Below are positions 1 to 1,088 of a DNA stretch of 1,088 bases, one piece after another. The DNA comes from Escherichia coli (GTDB lineage: Bacteria; Pseudomonadota; Gammaproteobacteria; Enterobacterales; Enterobacteriaceae): the NCBI RefSeq assembly GCF_003334335.1, contig NZ_QOWQ01000122.1; one strand, written 5' to 3'. The position numbers were made by a program, and so were the translations under genes. The stretch's first letter is position 1. Every line of letters starts with the position of its first letter. The notes under the pieces were generated by a model. That model did not search any database. It was not told where the DNA came from and saw only the letters and a program-made list of their open reading frames with translations.

Positions 1-228
1 GTCACCACCGCCGACATTCTGACGCCACGACGCCGGGAGGATTACGGTAAGGACCTGTGGAGTGCTTATCAGACCATTCAGGAGAATATGCTGAAAGGCG
101 GAATTTCAGGTCGCAGCGCTAAAGGAAAACGTATCCATACCCGTGCCATTCACAGCATTGACACTGACATTAAGCTCAACCGCGCATTGTGGGTGATGGC
201 GGAAACCCTGCTGGAGAGCCTGCGCTGA
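1..228 (+). CDS. 3' end of an upstream CDS (75 codons, TGA stop at 226-228); conserved island protein, possibly DUF932/YfjQ-like
   Basis: Frame 1 is the only frame open across 1-225; frame 2 hits TGA at 20-22 and frame 3 hits TAA at 48-50. Translation ends ...GISGRSAKGKRIHTRAIHSIDTDIKLNRALWVMAETLLESLR*. It is co-directional with and sits 54 bp upstream of the antirestriction gene, where DUF932-type genes are often found in such islands. Product assignment is from memory of that synteny and is tentative; the 5' end lies outside the window. Confidence 0.55.
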   Translation, partial: VTTADILTPRRREDYGKDLWSAYQTIQENMLKGGISGRSAKGKRIHTRAIHSIDTDIKLNRALWVMAETLLESLR

Positions 229-270
229 TTCAGCCATTACCCTGAAAACCACGCATTTATTTGTCCTTTA

Positions 271-275
271 AGGAG
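271..275 (+). promoter_or_regulatory. Shine-Dalgarno (AGGAG) for the antirestriction gene
   Basis: AGGAG at 271-275, 7 nt upstream of ATG at 283-285. Confidence 0.6.
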
Positions 276-282
276 TCATTTC

Positions 283-768
283 ATGAAAACCATTTCACAT
301 AATTCCACCACATCTTCTGTTTCCGTAACCGCTGCATCAGGGAATGACCAGCCTCAGTTGGTTGCCACCCTCGTCCCTGATGAACAGCGCATCAGCTTCT
401 GGCCGCAGCATTTTGGCCTCATTCCACAGTGGGTGGCCCTGGAGCCCCGTGTTTTCGGCTGGATGGACCGTCTGTGCGAAGACTACTGCGGTGGTATCTG
501 GAATCTGTACACCCTGAACAACGGCGGGGCATTTATGGCCCCCGAACCGGATGACGATGATGACGAAACATGGGTACTGTTCAATGCCATGAACGGCAAC
601 CGCGCTGAAATGAGCCCGGAAGCCGCTGGCATTGCTGCCTGTCTGATGACGTACAGTCATCACGCCTGTCGTACGGAGTGTTATGCCATGACGGTCCATT
701 ATTACCGGCTGCGGGATTACGCCCTGCAGCATCCGGAATGCAGCGCCATTATGCGCATCATCGACTGA
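283..768 (+). CDS. klcA: Antirestriction protein, KlcA/ArdB family (YfjX/YafX-like), 161 aa, complete
   Basis: Complete ORF from ATG 283 to TGA 766-768 with a canonical SD. The translation (MKTISHNSTT...FWPQHFGLIPQWVALEPRVFGWMDRLCEDYCGGIWNLYTLNNGGAFMAPEPDDDDDETWVLF...) matches my memory of KlcA/ArdB-type antirestriction proteins from E. coli cryptic prophages and IncP plasmids. Which paralog (yfjX, yafX or other) cannot be decided from sequence alone; 'klcA' is used as the family name. Confidence 0.9.
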   Translation: MKTISHNSTTSSVSVTAASGNDQPQLVATLVPDEQRISFWPQHFGLIPQWVALEPRVFGWMDRLCEDYCGGIWNLYTLNNGGAFMAPEPDDDDDETWVLFNAMNGNRAEMSPEAAGIAACLMTYSHHACRTECYAMTVHYYRLRDYALQHPECSAIMRIID

Positions 769-770
769 AT

Positions 771-775
771 GGAGG
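771..775 (+). promoter_or_regulatory. Shine-Dalgarno (GGAGG) for the RadC-like gene
   Basis: GGAGG at 771-775, 8 nt upstream of ATG at 784-786; it lies directly after the klcA stop, suggesting translational coupling or close co-expression. Confidence 0.6.
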
Positions 776-783
776 CAGGGACA

Positions 784-1088
784 ATGCAGCAGCTTTCCTT
801 TCTGCCCGGAGAAATGACGCCCGGCGAGCGCAGTCTCATTCTGCGGGCTCTGAAAACCCTGGACCGCCATCTTCATGAACCCGGTGTGGCCTTCACCTCC
901 ACCCGTGCGGCACGGGAATGGCTGATTCTGAACATGGCGGGACTGGAGCGTGAAGAGTTCCGGGTGCTGTATCTGAATAACCAGAATCAGCTGATTGCCG
1001 GTGAAACCCTCTTCACCGGCACCATCAACCGCACGGAAGTCCATCCCCGGGAAGTGATTAAACGCGCCCTGTACCACAATGCCGCTGC
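784..1088 (+). CDS. RadC-like JAB-domain protein (YeeS/YfjY/YkfG family, UPF0758), 5' portion; continues past the window end
   Basis: ATG 784 with a good SD; frame 1 stays open to the window end. The translation MQQLSFLPGEMTPGERSLILRALKTLDRHLHEPGVAFTSTRAAREWLILNMAGLEREEFRVLYLNNQNQLIAGETLFTGTINRTEVHPREVIKRALYHNAA... matches the conserved RadC C-terminal-domain pattern (E-F-x-V-L-x-L-[DN], LF-x-GT, V-x-PREV-x-K-x-AL-x-x-NA). The metal-binding JAB motif would lie just beyond position 1088. Paralog identity is undetermined, so no gene symbol is given. Confidence 0.88.
   Translation, partial: MQQLSFLPGEMTPGERSLILRALKTLDRHLHEPGVAFTSTRAAREWLILNMAGLEREEFRVLYLNNQNQLIAGETLFTGTINRTEVHPREVIKRALYHNAA

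What the first reader, a model, noticed from the sequence alone, without database searches (positions are those of the whole stretch)
1..1088. Anti-restriction / RadC-like 'establishment' module of an integrated mobile element
The gene order (conserved island protein, then KlcA/ArdB antirestriction, then short RadC-like JAB protein), all co-directional and tightly spaced, is the signature of CP4-type cryptic prophages and related islands in Enterobacteriaceae. It marks this window as horizontally acquired accessory DNA. By established synteny, a DUF987 gene and a CbeA/CbtA-type toxin-antitoxin pair would be expected downstream, and an integrase plus a tRNA attachment site further away.
Basis: partly seen in the sequence, partly recalled or inferred. 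Interest (0 to 1): 0.4.

Follow-up and report, generated by a model that had tools for sequence, protein, structure and literature searches.

The report
Known E. coli island antirestriction module
The window is an ordinary, already described piece of an Escherichia coli genomic island (the 'yee module' of the pheV island).

Summary
The window holds three co-directional genes, all in + frame 1:
- the last 75 codons of a DUF932 gene (1-228);
- a complete 161-aa ArdB/KlcA antirestriction gene (283-768; Pfam PF03230, E 3e-37);
- the first 101 codons of a 158-aa RadC-like JAB gene (784-1088; PF04002, E 2e-16).

ArdB is identical at 133 of 136 core residues to the crystallised, in-vivo-tested ArdB of E. 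coli CFT073. The JAB protein is 99.3% identical to K-12 YeeS.

An exact DNA copy lies in an E. coli assembly. A 99.8% copy lies in the Nissle 1917 pheV island. So is a 17/18 repeat of the tRNA-Phe 3' end, 5.2 kb past the window. In Nissle, tRNA-Phe and an integrase sit about 70 kb upstream.

Copies occur in 4824 of 5426 complete E. coli genomes (median 3 per genome) and on large IncHI plasmids, but in almost no phage records. dN/dS against K-12 paralogues is 0.08-0.22.

Three caveats apply. The 'establishment' role is inferred, not shown. GC content does not discriminate. The JAB catalytic motif lies just outside the window.

The module is already known, so interest is low.

The parts
1..228 (+). 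3' end (last 75 codons plus stop TGA 226-228) of a 272-aa DUF932 gene, the YfjQ/YafZ family
   Evidence: Pfam PF06067 model 182-227/227, E 1.5e-4. The full-length gene is at L012:9128-9946. It is 74.9% identical to K-12 YfjQ and YafZ and scores E 1e-127 against PHROG 12094. dN/dS is 0.14-0.22.
229..282 (+). 54-nt AT-rich spacer (39% GC) with the ribosome-binding site AAGGAG at 270-275
   Evidence: Read directly from the sequence; GC. No sigma-70-like promoter or intrinsic terminator was found and there is no Rfam match.
283..768 (+). Complete ardB gene: a 161-aa acidic ArdB/KlcA-family antirestriction protein (pI 4.74). It has a variable Ser/Thr-rich N-terminus (residues 1-25) and an acidic run DDDDDE at 550-567.
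   Evidence: PF03230 E 3.2e-37 over the full model. PDB 2WJ9 (ArdB of CFT073) E 1.4e-99; KlcA 2KMG E 4.3e-21. 133/136 identical to ArdB_CFT over residues 26-161. 69.5% identical to YfjX/LfgA and 67.5% to YafX. dN/dS 0.08-0.10.
769..783 (+). 15-nt spacer with the ribosome-binding site GGAGG at 771-775
   Evidence: Read directly from the sequence. This spacer differs between island copies.
784..1088 (+). First 101 codons (plus 2 bases) of a 158-aa short RadC-like JAB/JAMM gene, the orthologue of K-12 yeeS. The window cuts it 6 codons before the HNHPSGEVTPSKAD metal-binding motif.
   Evidence: PF04002 E 1.6e-16, model 2-65/121. The full-length gene is at L012:10502-10978. It scores 149 bits on TIGR00608 (cut-off 133.85) and matches only the C-terminal half of the RadC profile. 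It is 99.3% identical to YeeS, 81.6% to YkfG and 77.9% to YfjY/LfgB, and the motif is intact. PDB 2QLC E 6e-26.
337..1077 (-). 246-aa antisense ORF. This is an artefact, not part of the module.
   Evidence: It lies in the codon-aligned antisense frame. Only sense TTA, CTA or TCA codons create stops there, and none occurs between 340 and 1088. The frame is broken in the CP4-57, CP4-6 and L011 copies.

Best explanation
The window is part of the 'yee module', an approximately 9-kb gene block at the attR-proximal end of tRNA-inserted, P4-integrase-type E. coli genomic islands. Here that island is GI-pheV. The block runs DUF905, DUF932, ardB, RadC-like JAB (yeeS), DUF987, a 214-aa gene, cbeA, cbtA, DUF5983, DUF957.

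Shown here:
- the gene identities;
- the synteny;
- the island ends (tRNA-Phe plus integrase on one side, an imperfect repeat of the tRNA 3' end on the other);
- the multicopy, variable distribution;
- purifying selection on all three genes.

Shown by others on near-identical or paralogous proteins:
- Island ArdB proteins (CFT073 ArdB, YafX, YfjX) block all four families of type I restriction systems in vivo. They are not DNA mimics and did not inhibit EcoKI in vitro.
- The JAB paralogue YfjY/LfgB is reported to have metalloprotease activity.

Inferred:
- The three genes are probably co-transcribed as part of a longer operon, given the 54- and 15-nt gaps and the absence of a terminator or promoter consensus.
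- ArdB protects the element's unmodified DNA from type I restriction when it enters a new host.
- The JAB enzyme acts as a second entry or establishment effector, either a protease or a nucleic-acid-processing enzyme.
- The CbtA/CbeA pair stabilises the element once it is resident.
For: Gene identities.

Source and synteny:
- Exact source locus L012, with the full gene string.
- Nissle pheV island copy at 99.8%.
- tRNA-Phe and integrase upstream.
- A 17/18 repeat of the tRNA-Phe 3' end at L012:16017-16034 and L001:26299-26316; chance expectation 0.005.
- The published description of GI-pheV matches: a 'yee module' and a 19-bp imperfect attR with a T substitution (PMC11537424).

Distribution and selection:
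- Present in 4824 of 5426 complete E. coli genomes, median 3 and maximum 15 places per genome.
- The same block is on IncHI/IncFIB conjugative plasmids of 210-480 kb in Klebsiella, Citrobacter and Raoultella.
- dN/dS 0.08-0.22.

Function from the literature:
- ArdB function and structure: PMC2836571. The window's ArdB core differs from the tested ArdB_CFT at 3 of 136 residues.
- R64 ArdB inhibits a type I enzyme in vitro: PMC12429846.
- JAB protease activity and the lfgABCDE operon: PMC10846083.

Plasmid relatives: distant ArdB/KlcA homologues are found on 4637 plasmids, 76% of them conjugative. In the IncF examples inspected they lie in the leading region with ssb, DUF905, a parB-like gene and psiB. 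PMC11541004 describes such leading regions as anti-defence islands.
Against: - No conjugation, oriT or relaxase genes lie within 10-20 kb of the window. How and how often the island transfers is not shown, so an 'establishment' role has no direct support here.
- On the IncHI plasmids the block looks like an inserted island cassette, with AlpA, inovirus Gp2-family and WYL genes. It does not sit in a leading region.
- The ArdB mechanism is unresolved. It is indirect according to PMC2836571 and direct according to PMC12429846.
- The biochemical role of RadC-like JAB proteins is disputed: protease (PMC10846083) versus nuclease or nucleic-acid processing (PMC5512222, PMC3239186). The authors of the protease study state they could not strictly exclude contaminating proteases.
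- K-12 CP4-44 has lost window positions 1-807, so the genes are dispensable to the host.
Confidence: 0.85

Rival explanations
1. The operon is domesticated for host stress physiology. Its present function would be host-beneficial rather than element-beneficial: the JAB protein is a protease that degrades the antitoxin MqsA to derepress rpoS, and ardB is a passenger.
For: PMC10846083 reports the following for the 78%-identical paralogue YfjY/LfgB. Deleting it sensitises K-12 to H2O2, acid and heat. MqsA binds the operon promoter. Purified LfgB degrades MqsA and casein in vitro.
Against: This is a single study on one paralogue, and its authors could not strictly exclude contaminating proteases. 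The lfgA (ardB) deletion phenotype could not be complemented. The block is multicopy, variable, and carried on plasmids of other genera, which fits an element-level function. The two roles do not exclude each other.
Confidence: 0.2
2. ardB, the JAB gene and DUF987 are accessory regulators of the downstream CbtA/CbeA type IV toxin-antitoxin pair, together forming a five-gene toxin-antitoxin operon.
For: The order ardB, JAB, DUF987, antitoxin, toxin is conserved in CP4-6, CP4-57, GI-pheV and IncHI plasmids. Wen et al. considered them one operon (PMC5371832).
Against: Co-expressing the three upstream genes did not neutralise YkfI or YpjF toxicity (PMC5371832). ArdB alone has antirestriction activity (PMC2836571). 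ArdB/KlcA homologues on IncF plasmids have no CbtA neighbour.
Confidence: 0.08
3. The genes are early or accessory genes of a P4-like prophage or phage satellite, as the 'CP4' name implies, and protect phage DNA at infection.
For: There is a P4-type integrase next to the tRNA (intP4 in PMC11537424). AlpA and a DUF3987/YfjI protein occur in the same islands. All three proteins hit PHROG families. Distant DUF932 members sit in phage-like gene arrays in metagenomes.
Against: Only one record among 50,697 phage genomes matches the window, and it is 3.2 kb and unannotated. No capsid, tail or lysis genes lie within 20 kb. The block is found on large conjugative plasmids.
Confidence: 0.08
4. The genes are decaying junk with no current function.
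For: The island is littered with IS elements and pseudogenes. K-12 CP4-44 has deleted most of this segment.
Against: The reading frames are intact in thousands of genomes. dN/dS between paralogues that are nearly saturated at synonymous sites is 0.08-0.22. The JAMM motif is intact.
Confidence: 0.04

Closest known systems
'yee module' of the E. coli pheV genomic island (intP4.1_GI-pheV; Nissle 1917, CFT073 PAI II, EC958) and the K-12 cryptic element CP4-44
   Same: The window is 99.8-100% identical in DNA to these copies. The gene order is the same, as is the position about 5 kb from the imperfect attR repeat (PMC11537424). The yeeS product is 99.3% identical.
   Different: K-12 CP4-44 has a 3.3-kb deletion that removes irmA, DUF905, DUF932, ardB and the first codons of yeeS. 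Only window positions from about 808 to 1088 have a CP4-44 counterpart. The window differs from Nissle only in ArdB codon 30 (Leu versus Ile).
ArdB of E. coli CFT073 PAI II (PDB 2WJ9), and ArdB/KlcA proteins of conjugative plasmids (KlcA of pBP136, PDB 2KMG; ArdB of pKM101 and R64)
   Same: ORF2 matches Pfam PF03230 over the whole model. It is 133/136 identical to ArdB_CFT over the folded core. It aligns with KlcA from residue 22 to the end. It is small and acidic, pI 4.74.
   Different: Residues 1-25 are divergent. Relative to KlcA there is an acidic DDDDDE loop. Plasmid homologues are at most 39% identical, and in the IncF examples inspected they sit in leading regions with ssb and psiB rather than next to a JAB gene.
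K-12 CP4-57 operon lfgABCDE (yfjX-yfjY-ypjJ-yfjZ-ypjF) and the CP4-6 genes yafX-ykfG-ykfH-yafW-ykfI
   Same: The five-gene order is the same: ardB, JAB, DUF987, antitoxin, toxin, near an attachment end.
   Different: These are paralogues, not orthologues: 67-70% identity for ArdB and 78-82% for JAB. In CP4-57 and CP4-6 the DUF932 gene is separated from ardB by several genes. In the window it is directly upstream, 54 nt away.
Housekeeping RadC/YicR
   Same: It shares the C-terminal JAB/JAMM domain with the HxHPSGxxxPSxxD motif.
   Different: The island protein has 158 aa and lacks the N-terminal helix-hairpin-helix half. It matches profile positions 88-211 of 212 only, and falls below the NF000642 equivalog cut-off (160 versus 180 bits).

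Membership tests
ArdB/KlcA antirestriction family (Pfam PF03230) | Significant full-length match to the family profile | tested here: met
   E 3.2e-37, model 1-92/92. PHROG 10132 'anti-restriction protein', E 2.7e-63.
ArdB/KlcA antirestriction family (Pfam PF03230) | Sequence similarity over the whole fold to members with solved structures | tested here: met
   2WJ9 E 1.4e-99; 2KMG E 4.3e-21 over residues 22-161. 133/136 identical to ArdB_CFT.
ArdB/KlcA antirestriction family (Pfam PF03230) | Alleviates type I restriction in vivo without blocking modification | not testable with these tools
   Shown experimentally for ArdB_CFT, YafX and YfjX (PMC2836571), but not for this exact protein.
RadC-like JAB domain proteins (Pfam PF04002 / TIGR00608) | Profile match above the curated threshold | tested here: met
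   The window fragment scores E 1.6e-16. The full-length gene in the exact-match locus scores 149 bits on TIGR00608 against a cut-off of 133.85.
RadC-like JAB domain proteins (Pfam PF04002 / TIGR00608) | Intact JAMM metal-binding motif HxH...S..D | tested here: met
   HNHPSGEVTPSKAD at residues 107-120 of the full-length protein. It lies 6 codons beyond the window end, so it is not visible in the window itself.
Housekeeping RadC/YicR equivalog (NF000642) | Full-length protein with the N-terminal HhH domain, scoring above the equivalog cut-off | tested here: not met
   160.3 bits against a cut-off of 180. Only profile positions 88-211 of 212 are matched.
DUF932 (Pfam PF06067) | Profile match | tested here: met
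   The window fragment scores E 1.5e-4 on the last 46 model positions. The full-length gene is annotated DUF932 and scores E 1e-127 against PHROG 12094. There are 5336 cluster representatives.
tRNA-inserted P4-integrase genomic island (GI-pheV / CP4-44 type) 'yee module' | Downstream synteny: DUF987, then the cbeA/cbtA type IV toxin-antitoxin pair | tested here: met
   L012 and Nissle both carry DUF987, a 214-aa gene, CbeA, CbtA and DUF5983. The window is 100% identical to L012:9719-10806.
tRNA-inserted P4-integrase genomic island (GI-pheV / CP4-44 type) 'yee module' | Integrase adjacent to a tRNA gene at one end, and a direct repeat of the tRNA 3' end at the other | tested here: met
   In Nissle, tRNA-Phe is at 1729621-1729696 and the integrase at 1729894-1731159. 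The 17/18 repeat is at L001:26299-26316 and at L012:16017-16034. The tRNA and integrase end was checked only in the 99.8% Nissle copy, not in the exact source contig.
Conjugative-plasmid leading-region anti-defence island | Location next to oriT with ssb, psiB or relaxase genes, expressed early from single-stranded-DNA promoters | tested here: not met
   No ssb, psiB, relaxase or transfer genes lie within 10-20 kb. Only distant ArdB homologues on IncF plasmids have that context. Single-stranded-DNA promoters were not searched for specifically.
Prophage or P4-like satellite | Phage structural or hijacking genes nearby, or presence in phage genome records | tested here: not met
   There are none in the 90 kb inspected. 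One 3.2-kb unannotated record among 50,697 phage records matches.
Known anti-phage defence systems (PADLOC) | Match to a defence-system protein model | tested here: not met
   No hits for DUF932, ArdB, JAB or DUF987 at E <= 0.01.

The most novel reading that the evidence does not exclude
ArdB and the adjacent RadC-like JAB enzyme may work as a coupled pair. A JAB metalloenzyme, encoded next to ardB in islands and by resident paralogues in every K-12 test host, would be the missing cellular factor. That would explain why island ArdB proteins block type I restriction in vivo but not with purified EcoKI in vitro. A related open point is DUF932, which is always upstream in this block and has no solved structural relative. 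It could be a third, uncharacterised anti-defence effector.
Probability: 0.05. Interest if true: 0.5.

Novelty: already known. Interest (0 to 1): 0.08.

Why it matters
It matters little as a discovery. The segment is present in about 89% of complete E. coli genomes. Its ArdB has a crystal structure and in-vivo data. The enclosing 'yee module' of GI-pheV is described in the literature.

Its practical value is as an annotation marker. The trio flags horizontally acquired island DNA and correctly predicts the neighbouring toxin-antitoxin pair and the island end.

Three biochemical questions remain open, but they are known questions rather than new ones raised by this window: how ArdB inhibits type I enzymes, what the short RadC-like JAB proteins act on, and what DUF932 does.

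Tried and rejected
- **Non-coding features:** The Rfam scan at E <= 1 found nothing. The promoter and terminator scan found none, with about 0.7-0.9 expected by chance. The repeat scan gave only two-copy chance-level matches.
- **Antisense ORF:** The 246-aa ORF at 337-1077 is rejected as an artefact. It lies in the codon-aligned antisense frame and is not conserved in paralogous copies.
- **GC and codon usage:** It is uninformative: the module is about 55% GC with GC3 0.54-0.68, while the neighbouring and K-12 core genes compared are 51-58% with GC3 0.57-0.65.
- **Family libraries:** NCBIfam has no model for DUF932, ArdB or DUF987. PADLOC gave no hits.
- **DUF932 fold:**
  - An AlphaFold2 model from 94 homologues was confident (pLDDT 93, pTM 0.89).
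  - The best matches were partial: a HAD-family hydrolase, dynein, the TnsE C-terminal domain, and T3SS-chaperone or YbjN-like folds.
  - A sequence search of the PDB also found nothing, so no function could be assigned.
- **Is the trio ancient?** Distant DUF932 members (38-43% identity) sit in phage-like arrays with NAD-dependent ligase or thymidylate synthase genes. None has ArdB nearby, and only one of three has a RadC gene, about 5 kb away. The tight trio is therefore specific to the enterobacterial island and IncHI lineage.
- **Not run:** A whole-collection scan of genome contigs or metagenome contigs, because it could not change the verdict.
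Full report
**What is in the window**

The 1088-base window contains three co-directional genes on the + strand, all in frame 1.

- ORF1 runs off the left end and stops at TGA 226-228.
- ORF2 (283-768, 161 aa) follows a 54-nt AT-rich spacer. An AAGGAG site lies 7 nt before its ATG.
- ORF3 starts at 784 after a 15-nt spacer with a GGAGG site. It runs off the right end.

The Pfam results are:

| ORF | Family | Match |
|---|---|---|
| ORF1 | DUF932 | C-terminal end, E 1.5e-4 |
| ORF2 | Antirestrict PF03230 | whole model, E 3.2e-37 |
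| ORF3 | RadC-like JAB PF04002 | model positions 2-65 of 121, E 1.6e-16 |

No sigma-70-like promoter, intrinsic terminator, Rfam family or meaningful repeat is present.

The long antisense ORF at 337-1077 is an artefact. It lies in the codon-aligned antisense frame, where only sense TTA, CTA or TCA codons make stops. It is broken in paralogous copies.

**Are these real, selected genes?**

I compared each ORF with its K-12 paralogues: YfjQ and YafZ, YfjX and YafX, YfjY and YkfG. Differences fall mostly on third codon positions and dN/dS is 0.08-0.22 for all three.

**Where it comes from**

- Megablast finds the segment in 4824 of 5426 complete E. coli genomes. The median is 3 places per genome and the maximum 15; almost all are chromosomal.
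- The best hits, including Nissle 1917, are 99.8% identical. The two mismatches both fall in ArdB codon 30, CTC (Leu) versus ATA (Ile).
- A look-up by exact protein sequence recovered a contig that contains the window at 100% identity: GCA_000408665.1, KE137222.1, locus L012:9719-10806.

**Flanks**

In L012 and in Nissle the gene string is:

- YfjI-like (DUF3987), GTPase, Ag43, YeeR-like, IrmA, DUF905,
- **DUF932, ArdB, JAB**,
- DUF987, a 214-aa gene, CbeA, CbtA, DUF5983, DUF957, DUF4942, DUF6088, AbiEii.

Right end of the island:
- The sequence TTCCGATTCCGGGCACCA lies 5.2 kb past the window. It matches the tRNA-Phe 3' end at 17 of 18 positions, with one G-to-T change. The chance expectation is about 0.005.
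- It is followed by a terminator-like GC hairpin and a T run.
- The kps capsule genes lie beyond it.

Left end of the island, in Nissle:
- tRNA-Phe and a tyrosine integrase lie about 70 kb upstream.
- Between them and the window are pap remnants, iuc/iutA, sat, iha, nan genes and many IS elements.

This matches the published description of GI-pheV: intP4, modules including a 'flu module' and an 8,951-bp 'yee module' related to CP4-44, and a 19-bp imperfect attR with a T substitution (PMC11537424).

**Relation to K-12**

- The full-length JAB protein is 99.3% identical to YeeS, 81.6% to YkfG and 77.9% to YfjY/LfgB.
- ArdB is 69.5% identical to YfjX/LfgA and 67.5% to YafX.
- DUF932 is 74.9% identical to YfjQ and YafZ.
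- K-12 CP4-44 lacks L012:7189-10525. That 3.3-kb stretch holds the rest of the yeeR-like gene, irmA, DUF905, DUF932, ardB and the first codons of the JAB gene. Only window positions from about 808 to 1088 have a CP4-44 counterpart.

**The proteins**

*ArdB*
- It is small and acidic (pI 4.74).
- It matches PDB 2WJ9 (ArdB of CFT073 PAI II) at E 1.4e-99 and KlcA (2KMG) at E 4.3e-21.
- Over residues 26-161 it differs from ArdB_CFT at only three positions: L30I, A52T and D67N.
- Serfiotis-Mitsa et al. showed that ArdB_CFT, YafX, YfjX and KlcA block the four families of type I restriction systems in vivo. They did not inhibit purified EcoKI in vitro and are not DNA mimics (PMC2836571).
- A 2025 study reports direct in vitro inhibition of a Bacillus type I enzyme by R64 ArdB (PMC12429846).

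*JAB*
- The protein has 158 aa and matches only the C-terminal half of the RadC profile.
- It passes the TIGR00608 cut-off but not the housekeeping RadC equivalog cut-off, so it lacks the helix-hairpin-helix domain.
- Its HNHPSGEVTPSKAD motif is intact but lies six codons beyond the window.
- It matches the RadC-homolog structure 2QLC at E 6e-26.
- The paralogue YfjY/LfgB is reported to be a protease that degrades MqsA, within an operon lfgABCDE (PMC10846083).
- Iyer, Aravind and co-workers argue instead for a nucleic-acid-processing role (PMC3239186, PMC5512222).

*DUF932*
- It is a large family, with 5336 representatives at 50% clustering.
- There is no functional literature on it.

**What kind of element**

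- The whole block, from DUF905 to DUF957, also occurs on IncHI/IncFIB conjugative plasmids of 210-480 kb in Klebsiella, Citrobacter and Raoultella. It is about 74% identical in DNA there and sits beside AlpA, inovirus Gp2-family and WYL genes.
- The sub-block from ardB to cbtA occurs on pNDM-CIT.
- Among 50,697 phage records only one 3.2-kb unannotated entry matches.
- Distant ArdB/KlcA homologues (at most 39% identity) are on 4637 plasmids, 76% of them conjugative. In the IncF examples inspected they lie in the leading region with ssb, DUF905, a parB-like gene and psiB. Such leading regions have been described as anti-defence islands (PMC11541004).
- The module therefore works like plasmid establishment genes, but it is not located in a leading region. 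No transfer genes are nearby. 'Establishment' remains an inference.

**Rival explanations**

- A host stress-response role (PMC10846083) is possible and does not exclude the main reading.
- A role as accessory regulators of CbtA/CbeA is weakened because the upstream genes did not neutralise toxin toxicity (PMC5371832).
- A phage origin is weakened by the phage-database result.
- 'Junk' is contradicted by purifying selection.

**Composition**

The module is about 55% GC.

**Verdict**

The feature is already known: it is annotated in RefSeq, one protein is crystallised, and the module is named in the literature. Interest is low.

The only non-excluded novel angle is functional coupling of ArdB with the adjacent JAB enzyme. 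I rate it at about 5%.

Noticed in passing
window 337-1077, minus strand: A 246-aa antisense ORF spans ORF2 and ORF3. It exists because both genes share frame 1 and use no TTA, CTA or TCA codons in this stretch. It is broken in the CP4-57, CP4-6 and L011 copies, so it is an artefact.
   Followed up: yes
window 1-807; L012:7189-10525 versus K-12 L013:12300-12303: K-12 CP4-44 has a clean 3.3-kb deletion that removes irmA, DUF905, DUF932, ardB and the first codons of the JAB gene. K-12 yeeS is therefore a 5'-truncated copy abutting yeeR.
   Followed up: yes
window 370-372 (ArdB codon 30): The only differences from the Nissle and CFT073-type copies are two substitutions in one codon, CTC (Leu) versus ATA (Ile). 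KlcA also has Leu at the aligned position. This may be a small recombination patch between paralogous copies.
   Followed up: partly
L018 (K. pneumoniae pKpCol17ndm) 11022-15410; L019 (pNDM-CIT) 11921-13821: The whole island block, from DUF905 to DUF957, sits on large IncHI/IncFIB conjugative plasmids of several genera. Two extra small genes there flank ardB. The block is almost absent from phage genome records, so the 'cryptic prophage' name for this module is doubtful.
   Followed up: partly
L001 14122-20228 (agn43 to DUF932 in Nissle): A published Nissle transcriptome study found one Ag43 gene (fluC) and a DUF932 gene (yfjQ) up-regulated together after plasmid curing (PMC11056357). This hints that the phase-variable agn43 promoter may read through into the module. 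That study concerns a different island copy.
   Followed up: no
[not shown]
   Followed up: partly
L020, L022, L023-L025 (metagenomic contigs with distant DUF932 genes): DUF932 homologues at 38-43% identity lie in long co-directional arrays of small genes with NAD-dependent DNA ligase, thymidylate synthase, HNH and DUF8224 genes. These look phage-like. None has ArdB nearby, and only one has a RadC gene, about 5 kb away.
   Followed up: partly
L001/L012 between DUF987 and cbeA (L012:11281-11925): A 214-aa gene with no Pfam hit sits between DUF987 and cbeA in the pheV island copies. It is absent from K-12 CP4-44 and from loci L005-L010.
   Followed up: no
L005-L010, 13.8-20.5 kb: In other islands that carry the identical ArdB protein, the block is followed by a large SNF2-helicase, N6/N4-methyltransferase and ResIII gene set, or by a type I hsdS/hsdM pair. 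An antirestriction gene is thus travelling beside restriction or defence-like genes.
   Followed up: no
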